A stretch of 64,000 bases of DNA from Zootoca vivipara (lineage: Eukaryota): contig NC_083281.1 of the NCBI RefSeq assembly GCF_963506605.1, positions 56,854,001 through 56,918,000 of the forward strand, written 5' to 3'. Position numbers: made by a program. The stretch's first letter is position 1; every line of letters starts with the position of its first letter. This document shows, in pieces, positions 31,801 through 45,200 of this stretch.

Positions 31801-33177
31801 AGGTCTTGGGCACATGGCGTGGGAAAAGCCAAGGTGGCCTTGCAGAAAGATGCCCTCCCATCACTGGAGGGAGCACAGCCTGCAATCACAGAGGTCAAAG
31901 ACGTGGGTCAGGATGGGGCCCTAGGACTGCTTCCCAGCATATTTTCTGCTCCCTTGGCCCCAGTCCTGGAGCTGCAGTGTCCCTTAGGATGGTCAAGTTA
32001 AACTCATATGTCTGCTTTAGTCTGTCTGGCAGTGGCGCTTCAAGGCCACAAGCAAAGAGAGACTACTTGAGATCTTTTTAATGGGAAGTGCCAGGAGTTA
32101 GGAAGGCAGGGGGCCTTCTGCCTGCAAAGCACCTCTCCACCCACACTGTGCACATGCCAGTCACCACCTTTTAGTCCCTTCCCAATCTTCTCCCCTTCCA
32201 CAGGGGACAGTCCCAGTCCTGCTCTTGCAGGGGCTCCAGTTCAATGTGTTTCCTTCCTGTTTAGCAAGCCCAGGTGATGCCTAGTGTAGGTACTCGGCAT
32301 CCTCTGCCTCTCCCAGAATGGGCCCTGGCTACCTGCTCTTGGTAACCAGAGGTGCCCACACTAGCGACTGGATTCTTCCACCAAGCCTGCACACCTTGCC
32401 CAGCCACCCAAGGCAGCGGAGGAATGGTCCAGGGAATGGGTGGGTGGGCTCCTCGTCATGCTGAGCCAAAGTGAAGAGTCGTGATTCTTCTCTGTGTGTG
32501 CATAACCTTCCTTTACAGGAGGTGGACGAGGGAACAGACGTAGCACTGAAAACCCTTCCTCTTACCTGGCCCCTGTCTTGAAATGAATTTTTTGAACTTG
32601 AGTTTCTTTTCTGCAGTTGGTGCAGGGCATTCTCGGTGCCACCTTTGCCCTTCACTACTTGGAGGTGGTCCAGGCCTCCACCCTCTCTGGGGAGGCCCCT
32701 TTCTTTATTCCCTTCCCTCCTTCAATTCATCCTGCCTTTCCACCTCTGCAAGCCTCCTTCCTCCCTTTACCGGTCTTCCAGGTCCAGGTCTGCCTCATCT
32801 TCATCCTCTGCTTTCTTCAGTATCAGGGCACAGAAGATGGCAAAGCTTATCACCTGCAGTGGGTTTCATGGGAGAAGAGGGATGGGCAGGATCCACAGCC
32901 ATTTTGCCCCCCACCCCATCCATAAAACAGAGGGAGCATCTGTAGGCTTCCCTTTCTCCAGATGAGCCAAGTCCCACAACAAGTGACAAAACACCACAAC
33001 AAATTGGTGTATGCATGGGGGTGCTTTGGTTAAATTCTCCCCCACCCCCTTGAAATTCATGGGAGGAAGAGAGGAAATGCTGTGGGTGTTTGTAGTGCTC
33101 CAATGCCAGACACCTGTCCCAGGCAAGCAGGTGGCAAACACATATGTGAGATGAGGAAGACGTCTGTGCACCATGAT

Positions 33178-33248
<71 letters not shown>

Positions 33249-42200: not shown

Positions 42201-45200
42201 CTGCTTATCACCCAGATGCCGCCGCATGAGCCTTTGTGGCCTCCGCCCCATGGAGGTCAGATCCTGGTGGCAAACAGAGAAAAAAGAGTGGGACAGAACA
42301 GTGCCACGGTGCCGGGTAGGATATGTCACCCAATAGGCTTTCTTGGAAGGGGCAGGGTAAAGGGTTCCCTGTTAGGAGCTTGCCCAGGAATCATGCCCAG
42401 AGGAATTGTCTGGAGGGTGGCTAAGAGGTAGCACACAGGCTGTTTTTATTGCCCCCCCTCCTCTGCCTTGGTGCATCCACTGGAGTTTGGTTTCAGGCAG
42501 CAGGAGGGAAAGCCTATTTGCTTTGGACTTGGAGGGAAGAGAACTGGCCACCATCACCTACCAGCTGAGACTTCTGTTTTTGCCAAGGCCTGGAGCTGTT
42601 GGCACTCCTGGCCACTTTGCTTGGGCATTCACCTCCCTCCACAGGACCTGCAAAAAGGACCATCCTGAAAGGGAGCCCTTCCTGGGTCAGGAGGAGCAAT
42701 CTCTGTCCTCAGGGGTTGGGTGTCACAGTCCCACCCTGGCAGCCCAGCTGGTCTCTCACCAAATTCACAGATGAAAGGATGCCTCTGGCGGCATGTGGGC
42801 CCGGTGGCCTCCTGCAGCAGACCCAGGTTGGAGAGGAAGGTGCAGGTGGGGGGCTGATGGTGAGCCCCATGCAGATGAGGCTGGGCTCCTGGGGAAGACA
42901 CAAGAGGCCGTCATGGGCATGGTGGCAAGCTGGGCAGGACAAGGTGAGGGGCTTGCCCCCTTGTAAGATCTGACCACAGTAGGCAAAGCCCTTGACAGAG
43001 CAGATGAAAATAAGCAGAATTCTCCACTACAAGCAGAATTCTCTGCAGCACAGTGCCCCCACCTCCACACCCTGCCCCTCAATGTGGCTCCCCAAATCCC
43101 AGCCTTTAACCACAGCCAAGTCAGCTGTGTAAAGGGATGGGGACTCCCAGACCTGGCCTTTGTGAGAGAAACCAGGACGCACCCTTCACCCTCTGGAGTA
43201 GAAACCACGCCCCACCTCTGCCCAGCCCTCTCTGGTGCCCCCACAGGACTGACTTACCTGCCACCACAGGCTTGGTAGGGCCCTTGGAGACCCACCAGCC
43301 CCCAGAGGACCCCCTCATCTGCCCCCTCCTCCTTCTCAGAGCACCCCACGTCCCTGTCTCCTCACAAGGGACCTGTGCCAAGTACCCTCCCCATCGTCCG
43401 CAGGCAGCCTGGGCATCCTCAAAGGCTAGTCTTTCCTGGGCAAGCTGGTAGCAATGTCCCTGGTGCTCCCTTGGCACAGCCTCAGGCGTGGTGACAGTCA
43501 CAGCAGTCCTGCACAGGGCCCAGAGCAGCAGGGCTAAGCCAGGAGCTGCCTGTGGTCTCAGCGCCATCTCAGTCTGGCAGGATAGGCAAGATGGTCCCAG
43601 CAGGGCTCTGCTTGCTCCTCTGGCTGGAAGCCCACATGAAATACAGGAGAAGGAAGAAGCCAAGCCCTCCCGGTGTCTCTGTTTGCCCATGGAAATCAAG
43701 GGGGCAGCTGGGCAGCTTCCACAAACACTGGGCAGGGAAATTTGACTCTAGGAGGAAAAGGAGGATGGCAAAGCTTGTGGGCCGAGATTGCGGTGGGGAG
43801 GGCACACAGGAATAGCTCACATCTGCAGTCTTTTTGGAAATAGGTTCCAGTGAAATTTGACATTTTTTTTGCCATCTTAAACAGAGTGTGAACACAATCA
43901 CCAGAGAAAGCTTCTCTACTTTATTCTCTCTTTAAAATTATGTATACCAGCCTTGCCCAAGCCAGTACCCTTTGGACTACCACTCCCCTAGTCCCCAGCT
44001 GGCACAACCTTGTAATACTAGAGCTGATGGGAGTTGTACTCCAAAGCATCTGGGAGAGGGCTGATGTATGTCCAATGTGACTTTGGAGTCCCGGGCAGTT
44101 TTGCATTATTGCACGTTGTTTCCCTTTAAAAATATAGTCCAAACACACAACAGCCTTTCTGGGGAGAAACTGCTGCTTTCAGCCTCATATACTGAATGTG
44201 CTTCTTTGATCACAGTGGTTAGATAGCAACACTTCTGCTGTAGAAATCTGAGTGAAATTCAAGATCTCCACCAGCACACAGGAACATTATCTTTTGAATG
44301 CTTTAAATTCCTGTTTTTAACAGTCTCCTATTGTTTGACTTTAATTTTAATTAACCACTTAGATGTTTTATTACAATCGAGTGGCATGTGGGTTTTGTTA
44401 AATAATCAAAGTTACCCTAAAAAAGTATGTTTTCCTATCGATTAGTATAAAATAATGTCCTCCAAAATGTTATGAGGTCGATCTGATACAAATTGCTCCT
44501 GCTTCTCTCACTATGCTGCCATGTTCTTCTCCTCCTCACTCCCAGGTTTATTGCTCTCGCATTGGCTCCCCAGTCTCACATTTGCAGGAAGGGAAGGCTA
44601 GGAAGGCATCTGGCTGGGGAAGTGTGGTTTGCAAAACAACAGAACCTGTGACAACAACAGGCTGGAGCTGGAGGCAGGTAAATTTTTTTGACTGTGCTCA
44701 CCTTGCTTTTTGTAAACAAGGTTTTTATCCCCCCCCCCTTCAAAAACCTGGCAAACCTGTTACAGGTAGGTAGCCGTGTTGGTCTGCCGTAGTCGAAACA
44801 GAATAAAAAAATTCCTTCCAGTAGCACCTTAGAGACTTAGTTCATCTCTAAAGTGCTACTGGAAGGAATTTTATTACTGTATTTTGTGTGGCAAACCTGG
44901 TCAACCAGAGACAAGAGTAGAAGGAAATAATTGAGTACAAACACCATTAATGGTTCAAAATGGCAGGGTTAATAATAATAATAATAACCTTTCTCCAGAA
45001 TGAGACCACTTCCAGGCTGTTACTGTTTTGTGTGTGGGATTCAATACATTCCTGGCAAATTCAGGTGGTGCAGTTCAAGTGGATTGGGCCCTCTTACACA
45101 AGAAAGCTGCTTTCAAATAAAAAGGGATTTTTTTTTCAGTAAGGAAAGTGCTGGGGCAATGCCTTGGAGAGTGTGGTATTTAAAAAAATGCTTGATAAGG

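What the first reader, a model, noticed from the sequence alone, without database searches (positions are those of the whole stretch)
32329..43567. Channel-less tandem polycystin-1-like paralog upstream of PKD1L3
Seen: an intact multi-exon gene mirrors the PKD1L3 architecture from signal peptide through lectin, GPS, PLAT and TM5 (VISFAIFCALILKK). It then runs into a short hydrophilic tail, and only about 2 kb with no TOP/S1-S6 exons remains before the PKD1L3 ATG. Established: PKD1-family proteins have 11 TM, the last six forming the channel subunit that assembles with PKD2-family proteins (PKD1L3 with PKD2L1). Human has DHODH, not a paralog, at this position. Inference: a 5-TM GPS-cleavable receptor or modulator kept under selection, since frames stay open despite deep divergence.
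Basis: partly seen in the sequence, partly recalled or inferred. Interest (0 to 1): 0.7.

Follow-up and report, generated by a model that had tools for sequence, protein, structure and literature searches.

The report
Ancient channel-less polycystin-1-like gene
Next to the lizard PKD1L3 gene lies an intact gene for a "half polycystin" that keeps the receptor half and lacks the ion-channel half, and the same gene is conserved in fishes, amphibians and lizards.

Summary
On the minus strand, 23 coding exons (ATG 43567, stop 31861) reproduce every residue of a RefSeq protein of Zootoca vivipara named "polycystin-1-like protein 2" (1209 aa). It has a signal peptide, a C-type-lectin-like fold, GAIN/GPS (H-L-S), TM1, PLAT, TM2-TM5 and a short acidic tail. 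No channel exon lies in the 2.3 kb before the ATG (30437) of the complete PKD1L3 gene downstream.

The interpretation needs widening, because this is not a squamate duplicate. Channel-less proteins of the same build (complete models about 900-1170 aa) are annotated in frogs, salamanders, bichirs, sturgeons and about 90 teleost entries. They form one clade (100% bootstrap) that is separate from tetrapod PKD1L3 and from PKD1L2 and follows the species tree. It matches the "partial pkd1l3" that England et al. (2017) described in fish and read as decay. Lizard and frog gene models show it beside an intact PKD1L3.

Best reading: an ancient, selected, pore-less polycystin acting as a GPS-cleaved surface receptor. 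The function is inferred, not shown. One bowfin model with a channel half and two fused models remain unexplained.

The parts
31861..43567 (-). Whole coding span of the channel-less polycystin-1-like (CL) gene, ATG to stop, 23 coding exons
   Evidence: Exact mapping of P0001, 1209 of 1209 residues
43258..43567 (-). Exon 1: start codon, signal peptide, first part of the C-type-lectin-like domain
   Evidence: Exon-wise BLAST hits the N-terminal lectin region of PKD1L3/PKD1L2 at E 2e-5. The lectin fold is confident in the Pogona model.
42760..42888 (-). Exon 2: second part of the lectin-like domain
   Evidence: Best exon-wise hit is newt CL, E 1.8e-7.
42562..42647 (-). Exon 3: linker
42191..42263 (-). 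Exon 4: basic linker
41479..41534 (-). Exon 5: start of the helical GAIN subdomain
   Evidence: Assigned by alignment to the Pogona model.
41204..41263 (-). Exon 6: GAIN, helical part
40829..40990 (-). Exon 7: GAIN, helical part
40571..40695 (-). Exon 8: GAIN, helical part
40176..40305 (-). Exon 9: GAIN, beta part
   Evidence: Best hit is frog CL, E 1e-4.
39504..39632 (-). Exon 10: GAIN, beta part
   Evidence: Best hit is sturgeon CL, E 1.4e-7.
38951..39158 (-). Exon 11: GAIN, beta part
   Evidence: Best hit here is newt PKD1L3, E 6e-4.
38648..38832 (-). Exon 12: GAIN, beta part, first half of the GPS
38195..38429 (-). Exon 13: GPS cleavage motif (C-x-C-x-H-L-S) and TM1
   Evidence: Hydropathy 2.28. 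Best hit is frog CL, E 2e-25.
37544..37644 (-). Exon 14: start of PLAT
37284..37457 (-). Exon 15: PLAT. An orthologue-supported alternative donor would end the exon at 37300.
36803..37194 (-). Exon 16 as in the RefSeq model: it inserts about 85 extra residues into PLAT. An orthologue-supported alternative acceptor would start the exon at 36952.
   Evidence: PLAT E 0.21 for the short form.
36401..36603 (-). Exon 17: TM2
   Evidence: Hydropathy 2.29. Best hit is frog CL, E 7.5e-16.
35780..35973 (-). Exon 18: TM3
   Evidence: Hydropathy 1.99. Best hit is frog CL, E 1e-14.
34306..34450 (-). Exon 19: cytoplasmic helical loop
34025..34214 (-). Exon 20: cytoplasmic helical loop; the only GC donor
33720..33960 (-). 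Exon 21: TM4 and the first half of TM5 (ends ...QPLK)
   Evidence: query. Hydropathy 2.15. Best hit is frog CL, E 2e-24.
32771..32853 (-). Exon 22: second half of TM5 (VISFAIFCALILKK) and the acidic tail
31861..31879 (-). Exon 23: last five codons and the stop. The ending is shared by all six squamate models read.
30438..31860 (-). Stretch between the CL stop and the PKD1L3 start. It holds no polycystin-domain or channel exon.
   Evidence: tblastn with 4 queries at E<=10 gave only noise. Reading on past the stop shows no significant likeness to the PKD1L3 loop exon.
12090..30437 (-). Downstream neighbour, for context: a complete PKD1L3 gene with its own GPS, TM1-5, polycystin domain and channel exons
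   Evidence: Pfam PKD_channel 5.6e-19 and Polycystin_dom 9.6e-8 on single exons.

Best explanation
This is the lizard member of an old family of vertebrate polycystin-1-like genes that lack the channel half and have gone largely unrecognised. I call the family CL here.

The protein keeps the whole receptor half of a polycystin-1-type protein:
- signal peptide;
- C-type-lectin-like domain;
- GAIN domain with an intact GPS cleavage triad;
- TM1;
- cytoplasmic PLAT domain;
- TM2-TM5.

It then ends about 20-35 residues after TM5 in an acidic cytoplasmic tail. It has no polycystin (TOP) domain, no S1-S6 and no coiled coil.

[quoted passage not shown] It has been kept under purifying selection since then.
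- Ray-finned fishes kept CL. This is the 'partial pkd1l3' of the literature.
- Amphibians and squamates kept both CL and PKD1L3, side by side in the agamid and frog models read.
- I saw no mammal, bird, turtle or crocodilian member.

Inferred mechanism: it cannot be a pore subunit. It works as a GPS-cleaved, lectin-type surface receptor or adhesion protein. Its PLAT and 5-TM module handles membrane anchoring and trafficking, and it may act as an accessory partner of PKD2-type channels.

Shown: gene structure, domain content, lack of a channel half, distribution, clade and conservation.
Inferred: cleavage, topology, any ligand, any partner.
For: Gene model:
- All 1209 residues of P0001 map exactly, with 22 canonical introns.

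Domains:
- GPS and/or PLAT are found by Pfam in 5 of 5 squamate and 6 of 6 frog, newt, bichir and flatfish orthologues scanned. None of these 11 has Polycystin_dom, PKD_channel or REJ.
- GPS triad in 39 CL proteins: H 39 of 39, L 35 of 39, S/T 39 of 39, both cysteines 39 of 39. The window has H-L-S.
- The AlphaFold model of the Pogona orthologue gives block-mean pLDDT of 81-92 for the lectin fold, mostly 63-90 for GAIN and 66-91 for PLAT.
- Foldseek hits are adhesion-GPCR GAIN domains, PLAT domains and mannose-binding protein A.
- The PDB sequence search hits polycystin-1 (6a70_B) at E 2.2e-23 over GPS to about TM3.
- Five hydrophobic segments in 2 of the 3 orthologue proteins analysed (Pogona, Podarcis); Sceloporus has the same five plus its signal peptide and one marginal segment. 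In the window, TM1-TM4 show up exon by exon.

No channel half:
- One search found no channel-like match before PKD1L3.
- Of the 120 listed hits (217 hits in all), 0 carry PF08016 or PF20519, and lengths are 211-1170 aa.
- In 29 of 32 proteins read, the protein ends 36-52 residues from the QPLKV motif. 12 of 13 teleosts end at exactly 47.

Clade:
- The CL clade has 100% bootstrap and follows the species tree. PKD1L3 is a separate 100% clade.
- Exon by exon, 12 of the 15 window exons with a hit at E<=1e-3 score best on non-squamate CL proteins.

Tandem arrangement elsewhere:
- Fused models in an agamid and a frog join CL to PKD1L3.

Literature:
- England et al. 2017 describe a zebrafish 1083-aa protein with Lectin_C, GPS and PLAT and no channel domain, in synteny with amniote PKD1L3 (passages).
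Against: - One bowfin model (P0017, partial, named by homology) lies inside the CL clade for GPS..TM5 but continues into Polycystin_dom and PKD_channel. Its channel half is sister to tetrapod PKD1L3 at 96%. If that model is real, the ancestral CL had a channel half and truncation was repeated, or short and long isoforms coexisted.
- Two non-RefSeq models fuse CL to PKD1L3.
- The squamate branch is long (stem 0.43). Pfam PLAT and GPS scores are weak in squamates: the lacertid orthologue has GPS at 19.8 bits, below the cut-off, and no PLAT hit. Constraint may therefore be relaxed in lizards.
- The Zootoca RefSeq model carries about 85 extra residues inside PLAT.
- The transmembrane part of the structure model has low confidence (block-mean pLDDT 34-68).
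- There is no transcript, protein or dN/dS evidence here. The tree is neighbour-joining only, and the link between CL and PKD1L3 is weak (64% and 68%).
- Absence from mammals and birds rests only on not seeing them among the listed hits.
Confidence: 0.78

Rival explanations
1. The gene is a recent, squamate-restricted tandem partial duplicate of the neighbouring PKD1L3. This is the narrow reading of the finding's title.
For: It lies on the same strand, 1.4-2.3 kb upstream of PKD1L3. It has the same domain order and the same number of exon blocks (10) from GPS to the second half of TM5.
Against: Identity to the neighbour is only 35-43% in the three shared exon matches. The lizard gene groups with fish and amphibian proteins at 100% bootstrap, outside the PKD1L3 clade. 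Most window exons score best on frog, newt, bichir, sturgeon or teleost CL proteins.
Confidence: 0.03
2. It is a decaying remnant, a PKD1L3-type gene on its way to being lost. This is how the fish 'partial pkd1l3' was read in 2017. On this view the open frames would be kept by chance or created by the gene predictor.
For: England et al. 2017 did not count the channel-less fish sequence as a bona fide pkd gene (passages). The squamate branch is long and Pfam domain scores are weak. The Zootoca model has an odd insertion in PLAT.
Against: The window has 23 open exons with canonical splice sites. Proteins of the same build are seen in all 120 listed entries of 217 hits. The last 110 residues have 29 invariant columns across nine species from bichir to lizard. 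The GPS triad and cysteines are kept. The stop position is nearly fixed in teleosts. Indels between squamate orthologues keep the frame.
Confidence: 0.05
3. It is only the first half of a longer unit. Either transcripts read through into PKD1L3, as in the fused models, or the true gene still has channel exons, as in the bowfin model. On this view the short protein is not the main product.
For: The fused 2765-aa (Phrynocephalus) and 2401-aa (Pelobates cultripes) models skip the terminal mini-exon. The bowfin model has Polycystin_dom and PKD_channel after TM5. Paralogous exon phases match at the TM5 exon boundary, since both exons start in phase 0.
Against: The stop in the mini-exon is shared by 6 of 6 squamate models read. 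RefSeq keeps the two genes apart in Pelobates fuscus, Lissotriton and Zootoca. A 5-TM protein followed by a second ectodomain would place that ectodomain in the cytoplasm (inference). Splicing from CL exon 22 (ends in phase 2) into the PKD1L3 loop exon (expects phase 1) would shift the frame. Per England et al., the teleosts and the gar they examined have no channel-domain pkd1l3 sequence at that locus, yet their CL gene is strongly conserved. The bowfin record is a partial, homology-named model, which can merge neighbouring paralogues (inference).
Confidence: 0.12
4. It is an assembly artefact or a local deletion in this genome that removed the channel exons.
For: None beyond the bare possibility. 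The window is a single assembly.
Against: The window has no N. The same truncated build is seen in many independent assemblies.
Confidence: 0.01

Closest known systems
The 'partial pkd1l3' of zebrafish, medaka, stickleback, pufferfish and spotted gar (England et al. 2017, PMC5318412; passages read)
   Same: It has Lectin_C, GPS and PLAT, is about 1083 aa and has no polycystin cation channel domain. It lies in synteny with amniote PKD1L3. The domain coordinates given for zebrafish nearly equal those of the flatfish CL protein P0019. Fish CL proteins group with the lizard gene at 100%.
   Different: There it was treated as the fish orthologue of PKD1L3 in the course of being lost. Here it sits beside an intact PKD1L3 and falls outside the PKD1L3 clade, so it is a separate gene family. 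No zebrafish sequence was in my tree, so the identification rests on architecture, the synteny statement and other teleosts.
PKD1L3 (tetrapods), the downstream neighbour
   Same: Tandem position, same strand, same domain order (lectin, GAIN/GPS, TM1, PLAT, TM2-5), and ten exon blocks from GPS to TM5 in both.
   Different: PKD1L3 goes on into the loop, polycystin domain and channel. Identity is 35-43%. It forms a separate 100% clade.
PKD1L2 (the name RefSeq gives these proteins)
   Same: It gets the highest profile scores outside the CL clade, about 500 bits against about 300-355 for PKD1L3.
   Different: PKD1L2 proteins are 2350-2460 aa with a channel half and form a separate group in the tree. 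The RefSeq name is therefore a nearest-hit label, not an orthology statement.
Polycystin-1, N-terminal transmembrane part (PDB 6a70_B and others)
   Same: The sequence profile aligns from the GPS stalk through TM1, PLAT and on to about TM3 at E 2.2e-23.
   Different: Polycystin-1 has 11 TM and joins the PKD2 pore (recalled). CL ends after TM5.
Sea urchin SpREJ proteins without a channel domain (Gunaratne et al. 2007, PMC1934368; passages read)
   Same: They are PKD1-family members with GPS and PLAT and fewer than 11 TM. Only 4 of 10 SpREJ proteins have a cation channel domain.
   Different: That is an independent echinoderm expansion with REJ domains and PKD repeats. I tested no orthology.
Adhesion GPCRs
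   Same: The GAIN fold with GPS. The top Foldseek hits are latrophilin and BAI GAIN domains, and the ADGRG6 GPS appears in the sequence search.
   Different: CL has no 7-TM domain. It has five TM with a PLAT domain after TM1.

Membership tests
Polycystin-1 (PKD1-like) family | GAIN domain with a GPS motif just before TM1 | tested here: met
   The C-x-C-x-H-L-S motif is in window exon 13. Pfam GPS is found in orthologues. The motif is conserved in 39 CL proteins. The GAIN fold appears in the model.
Polycystin-1 (PKD1-like) family | PLAT/LH2 domain in the first cytoplasmic loop | tested here: met
   Pfam PLAT is above the cut-off in Sceloporus (32.6 bits) and at 42.0-84.7 bits in the five frog, newt, bichir and flatfish CL proteins scanned. 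It is weak or absent in other squamates. The PLAT fold is confident in the Pogona model. In the window itself the best result is only E 0.21 on one exon.
Polycystin-1 (PKD1-like) family | Eleven transmembrane segments | tested here: not met
   Five hydrophobic segments. The protein ends 37 residues from the QPLKV motif of TM5.
Polycystin-1 (PKD1-like) family | Polycystin (TOP) domain and polycystin cation channel domain | tested here: not met
   No PF20519 or PF08016 in 11 of 11 CL orthologues scanned, nor in the 120 listed hits. No such exon lies before PKD1L3 in the window.
Polycystin-1 (PKD1-like) family | C-terminal coiled coil that binds PKD2-type partners | tested here: inconclusive
   I ran no coiled-coil prediction. 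The tail after TM5 is only about 20 acidic residues, too short to hold the known motif (inference).
PKD1L3 orthologue | Falls inside the PKD1L3 clade | tested here: not met
   NJ tree of 36 sequences, 621 columns and 200 bootstraps: the PKD1L3 clade has 100% support and CL lies outside it.
PKD1L2 orthologue (RefSeq name) | Falls inside the PKD1L2 clade and has PKD1L2 length and domains | tested here: not met
   It lies outside the PKD1L2 group. It is 1209 aa, against 2350-2460 aa for PKD1L2.
Channel-less CL family (fish 'partial pkd1l3') | Lectin-like, GAIN/GPS, PLAT and five TM, with the stop within about 50 residues after TM5, grouping with fish and amphibian members | tested here: met
Channel-less CL family (fish 'partial pkd1l3') | Position next to the PKD1L3/DHODH region | tested here: inconclusive
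   It lies next to PKD1L3 in the window and, by fused models, in an agamid and a frog. DHODH is not in the window; cytochrome b5 exons lie on the other side. No eukaryote genome collection was available to check other species.
Adhesion GPCR | Seven-transmembrane domain after the GAIN domain | tested here: not met
   Five TM with PLAT after TM1. No 7tm Pfam family was found.

The most novel reading that the evidence does not exclude
CL is a sixth, ancient subfamily of vertebrate polycystin-1-like genes, a stand-alone 'half polycystin'. Its conservation over the whole history of bony vertebrates would show that the GAIN, TM1, PLAT and TM2-5 receptor module has a function of its own, without any pore half.

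On this reading:
- the teleost 'pkd1l3' is not a dying PKD1L3 but this gene;
- true PKD1L3 was lost in most ray-finned fishes;
- CL was lost in mammals and perhaps in other amniotes.

A bolder version: the ancestral gene made both a short and a long product, and bowfin still keeps the long one.
Probability: 0.55. Interest if true: 0.62.

Novelty: new variant of a known kind. Interest (0 to 1): 0.5.

Why it matters
Whether polycystin-1-type proteins act mainly as receptors or as channel subunits is a long-running question (recalled). A natural protein that keeps only the receptor half, conserved from bichirs to lizards, would isolate that half for study.

It would also correct two annotations:
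- The RefSeq name 'polycystin-1-like protein 2' is a nearest-hit label.
- The fish 'pkd1l3' would be the orthologue of this gene, not of mammalian PKD1L3. That changes how loss and gain of sour-taste-related polycystins across vertebrates are read.

The limits are plain. The gene seems absent from mammals, its existence in fish was already noted, and nothing here shows what it does.

Tried and rejected
- Pfam on ten raw minus-strand ORFs and on ten exact exons gave nothing useful. The pieces are too short and the squamate sequences too diverged.
It said nothing about distribution.
- I thought the terminal mini-exon and the sequence after its stop might be a relic of the PKD1L3 TM5-TM6 loop exon. 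A local alignment scored 23, and 927 of 2000 shuffles reached that score, so I rejected the idea.
- I considered a 'shared channel cassette', with the CL exons splicing into the PKD1L3 channel exons as in variable-first-exon clusters. CL exon 22 ends in phase 2 and the PKD1L3 loop exon expects phase 1. An in-frame join exists one exon earlier, but that follows trivially from paralogy. There is no positive evidence, so I keep it only as a low-probability part of a rival explanation.
- AATAAA occurs on the minus strand at 32709, 31338 and 31191. With 72 matches in the window, about one is expected by chance in that stretch, so this is not evidence for a 3' end.
- I could not decide whether the bowfin model is a chimera. 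Its channel half being sister to tetrapod PKD1L3 fits both readings.

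
Full report
**Source and limits**

The window has no N. One exon of the finding, used as a protein query, returned eight squamate proteins named 'polycystin-1-like protein 2'. The best was a Zootoca vivipara RefSeq protein (P0001, 1209 aa). P0001 maps onto the window without a single mismatch, so the window is from that lizard or a near-identical genome. It is not human.

Whole-protein searches, the profile searches and the fold used orthologues of other species as the tools returned them.

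I could therefore not inspect the genomic context of any orthologue. Supplementary files of papers were closed.

**Observation**

The gene lies on the minus strand. A script that demanded exact identity, codon by codon and across split codons, placed all 1209 residues of P0001 in 23 coding exons. They run from the ATG at 43567 to the stop at 31861 (3630 nt). There are 21 GT-AG introns and one GC-AG intron.

If exon 22 were not spliced, the frame would stop one codon after the donor.

The Zootoca model differs from the other squamate models by about 85 extra residues inside PLAT. The splice sites that give the short, orthologue-like form are present in the window: a donor leaving the exon at 37300 and an acceptor starting the next at 36952.

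**Domains**

Pfam finds nothing significant in raw ORFs or single exons of the window (PLAT E 0.21 on one exon). The evidence comes from five other sources.

1. Exon-wise BLAST against 18 named relatives. I tested 22 exons. Exon 23 is too short and was left out, and exon 16 was used in its short form. Exon 1 matches the N-terminal lectin region of PKD1L3 and PKD1L2 at E 2e-5. Exon 13 (GPS and TM1) reaches E 2e-25, exons 17 and 18 reach E 1e-14 to 1e-16, and exon 21 reaches E 2e-24.
2. Pfam on orthologues. GPS and/or PLAT are found in 5 of 5 squamate proteins. They are also found in 6 of 6 frog, newt, bichir and flatfish proteins, with PLAT E-values down to 1e-23 in the fishes. No REJ, Polycystin_dom or PKD_channel is found in these 11. 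Squamate scores are weak: in the lacertid orthologue GPS is below the cut-off and PLAT is not found.
3. The GPS triad. Exon 13 reads C-x-C-x-H-L-S. Among 39 CL proteins H is kept in 39, L in 35, S/T in 39 and both cysteines in 39.
4. An AlphaFold model of the Pogona orthologue, built from a 39-sequence alignment. Mean pLDDT is 64.2 and pTM 0.38. Block-mean pLDDT is 81-92 for the lectin-like fold, mostly 63-90 for the two GAIN subdomains and 66-91 for PLAT. Confidence is low for the GPS strand and the membrane helices.
   - Foldseek against the PDB gave 27 matches at E<=0.001. The list is led by latrophilin and BAI GAIN domains and by PLAT domains of Rab6IP1, lipoxygenases and lipases. Rat mannose-binding protein A follows at E 2.4e-3. 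No polycystin chain was among the listed matches.
   - The sequence-profile search of the PDB did hit polycystin-1 (6a70_B, E 2.2e-23), from the GPS stalk to about TM3.
5. Hydropathy. Two of the three whole orthologues analysed (Pogona, Podarcis) show five segments; Sceloporus shows the same five plus its signal peptide and one marginal segment. In the window, TM1 to TM4 are found exon by exon. TM5 spans the junction of exons 21 and 22, so it is not seen exon-wise.

**No channel half**

I ran tblastn with a lizard PKD1L3 (P0045), the bowfin model (P0017), a sawfish full-length relative (P0023) and the fused agamid model (P0009), at E<=10. Only noise (E 2.3-9.9) appeared between 30400 and 33000.

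The same queries trace a complete PKD1L3 downstream, from exon 1 (ATG 30437) to the last exon near 12090. From GPS to TM5 it has ten exon blocks, as CL does, and nine or ten more follow for the loop, polycystin domain and channel. Single exons give PKD_channel at 5.6e-19 and Polycystin_dom at 9.6e-8.

**Distribution**

A profile of five squamate proteins was searched against 1.84 billion representatives. It gave 2800 hits at E<=1e-3, of which 150 were listed. I looked up names for 30 of them. High-scoring hits that end just after TM5 come from:
- frogs (Pelobates fuscus 1123 aa, Rhinoderma 1031 aa, Pseudophryne 777 aa);
- a salamander (Pleurodeles, 701 and 566 aa);
- bichirs (956 and 962 aa);
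- teleosts (Pleuronectes 1084 aa, Albula 615 aa).

A second search used an alignment of the last 110 residues of nine such proteins. It gave 217 hits at E<=1e-10, of which 120 were listed. By their names these 120 comprise:
- 18 amphibian entries;
- 4 squamate entries (two species);
- 4 bichir or sturgeon entries;
- 5 unnamed entries, which I did not use;
- 89 entries that I take to be teleosts.

Lengths are 211-1170 aa. The precomputed Pfam column shows GPS, PLAT and sometimes Lectin_C, and never PF08016 or PF20519. No bird, turtle, crocodilian, mammal, lungfish or coelacanth was listed. That is weak evidence of absence, because 97 hits were not shown and candidates were capped.

In 29 of 32 proteins read, the protein ends 36-52 residues from the start of the QPLKV motif in TM5. 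Twelve of 13 teleosts end at exactly 47. The three exceptions are:
- the bowfin model;
- a sturgeon isoform, where my pattern matched an unrelated upstream site;
- a sturgeon record flagged as unverified.

**Relationships**

I built a neighbour-joining tree over GPS..TM5 with 36 named sequences, 621 columns, Kimura-corrected distances and 200 bootstraps.
- The CL clade has 100% support. Inside it, ray-finned fishes and tetrapods, then amphibians and squamates, follow the species tree.
- A tetrapod PKD1L3 clade has 100% support. It includes the C-terminal halves of the two fused models and a cordylid lizard PKD1L3.
- PKD1L2 is separate.
- Three cartilaginous-fish proteins join PKD1L3 at 68%, and that pair joins CL at 64%. 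The order of these three groups is therefore open.

The squamate CL stem is long (0.43). The squamate profile scores about 500 bits on PKD1L2 and about 300-355 bits on PKD1L3, which explains the RefSeq name. Exon by exon, 15 of 22 window exons have a best hit at E<=1e-3. Of these, 12 score best on non-squamate CL proteins, 2 on PKD1L3 (exon 1, tied with PKD1L2, and exon 11) and 1 on PKD1L2 (exon 15).

**Literature**

Seven searches found no paper that treats this gene as a family of its own or reports it in tetrapods.

- England et al. 2017 (PMC5318412; passages) list a zebrafish 'pkd1l3' of 1083 aa with Lectin_C, GPS and PLAT and no channel domain. They report similar partial sequences in pufferfish, stickleback, medaka and gar, in synteny with amniote PKD1L3 and DHODH. 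They do not count it as a bona fide pkd gene and suggest that pkd1l3 is being lost in ray-finned fishes.
- Mayeur et al. 2024 (PMC11979771; one passage) name two extra chondrichthyan genes pkd1L4.1 and pkd1L4.2, outside the Pkd1L2 and Pkd1L3 clades. Their supplementary trees, which I could not see, may bear on the cartilaginous-fish proteins in my tree.
- Gunaratne et al. 2007 (PMC1934368; passages) show that sea urchin PKD1-family proteins have 1-11 TM and that only four of ten have a channel domain. This is a precedent for channel-less members.
- A gecko genome paper (PMC10776941; passages) reports PKD1L3 missing in some sauropsids and in all the snakes studied. It does not mention this gene.

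**Results that cut against the reading**

1. The bowfin model P0017 is partial, and its name ('PK1L2 protein, partial') suggests it was labelled by homology. It is inside the CL clade for GPS..TM5 (with Albula, 84%). Yet it has Polycystin_dom (780-950) and PKD_channel (957-1137) after TM5. In a tree of the channel half (21 sequences, 457 columns) it is sister to tetrapod PKD1L3 at 96%, on a long branch (0.67), with cartilaginous fishes outside at 92%.
   - That fits a merged model made of CL plus a neighbouring true PKD1L3.
   - It also fits a retained full-length CL.
   - Parsimony favours the merge, since the alternative needs at least four or five independent truncations in the same exon. 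I could not test this.
2. Two non-RefSeq models fuse CL to PKD1L3: Phrynocephalus (2765 aa) and Pelobates cultripes (2401 aa). In the Pelobates model the terminal CL exon is skipped. They show the tandem arrangement in an agamid and a frog. They may also reflect read-through transcripts.
3. Squamate CL evolves fast and its PLAT and GPS score weakly.
4. I have no transcript, protein or dN/dS data.

**Mechanism**

Shown: the protein has the complete receptor half of a polycystin-1-type protein and nothing of the pore half.

From what is known of polycystin-1 (recalled, not tested here):
- the GAIN domain cleaves itself at H-L|T/S, leaving the two fragments attached;
- PLAT binds membrane lipids and governs trafficking;
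- S1-S6 and the C-terminal coiled coil make the contact with PKD2-type subunits.

CL lacks the last two, so it cannot sit in a pore tetramer. I therefore take it to be a self-cleaving, lectin-type surface receptor or adhesion protein, anchored by five helices, with a cytoplasmic PLAT domain and an acidic cytoplasmic tail.
- I am fairly confident (about 0.8) that it is a functional, selected, pore-less gene.
- I am much less confident (about 0.3) in any particular role.
- Acting as an accessory partner of PKD2L1-type channels is possible but has no support here.

**Novelty**

The gene model is public, and the fish counterpart has been noticed. What appears new:
- the gene exists in tetrapods beside an intact PKD1L3;
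- fish, amphibian and lizard proteins form one well-supported clade outside PKD1L3 and PKD1L2;
- the stop position just after TM5 is almost fixed.

That makes it a distinct variant of the polycystin-1 kind rather than a decaying copy.

**Virus-like stretch**

The only such stretch I found is at 53462-54247 on the plus strand. It is one open frame of 262 codons matching the C-terminal part of a reverse transcriptase (Pfam RVT_1, E 8.1e-10, profile positions 147-194 of 205).
- It is the remnant of a pol-like gene, which I take to be of a non-LTR (LINE-type) retroelement; that assignment is my own reading of the sequence and no call tested it.
- The remnant is broken once, by truncation at its 5' side, with no stop or frameshift in the part that remains.
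- There is one copy in the window.
- It lies outside the gene of the finding.
- I described it only.

Noticed in passing
window 53462-54247 (+): A 262-codon open frame matches the C-terminal part of a reverse transcriptase (Pfam RVT_1, E 8.1e-10). I take it for a non-LTR (LINE-type) element; no call tested that. It is a single pol-like gene remnant, truncated once at its 5' side, with no internal stop or frameshift, and occurs once in the window. It is probably the virus-like stretch the operators mention. Described only.
   Followed up: partly
window 55202-55600 and 60849-61124 (+): Two exons of a cytochrome b5 gene (Pfam Cyt-b5, E 1.8e-8 and 1.4e-13), head to head with the CL gene.
   Followed up: partly
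window 11658-11981, 34759-35082, 45531-45691: A dispersed repeat built of units of about 133 bp. The copy inside CL intron 18 is inverted relative to the first copy and 94% complementary over 324 nt. The family was not identified, and Rfam found nothing in the window.
   Followed up: no
window 33180-33248: A perfect (CTG)23 run on the plus strand, inside CL intron 21.
   Followed up: no
window 36803-37457 (-): The RefSeq Zootoca model uses splice sites that insert about 85 in-frame residues into the PLAT domain. The sites that give the form seen in Podarcis, Pogona, Sceloporus and Anolis are also present (exon ends at 37300 and 36952).
   Followed up: yes
window 1-3000: A GC-rich block (GC 0.55-0.60) with a minus-strand ORF beginning MSRRKQTTPNKVH near 1240. 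It may be the first exon of the next gene. Pfam found nothing, and it remains unidentified.
   Followed up: partly
proteins P0009 (Phrynocephalus forsythii) and P0010 (Pelobates cultripes): Public gene models of 2765 and 2401 aa fuse the channel-less gene to PKD1L3. This is either an annotation merge or a read-through transcript. Either way it shows the tandem order in an agamid and a frog.
   Followed up: partly
protein P0017 (Amia calva, partial): This is the only model in the channel-less clade that continues into a polycystin domain and channel. Its channel half is sister to tetrapod PKD1L3 (96%) on a long branch. Whether it is a chimera or a retained long form is unresolved.
   Followed up: partly
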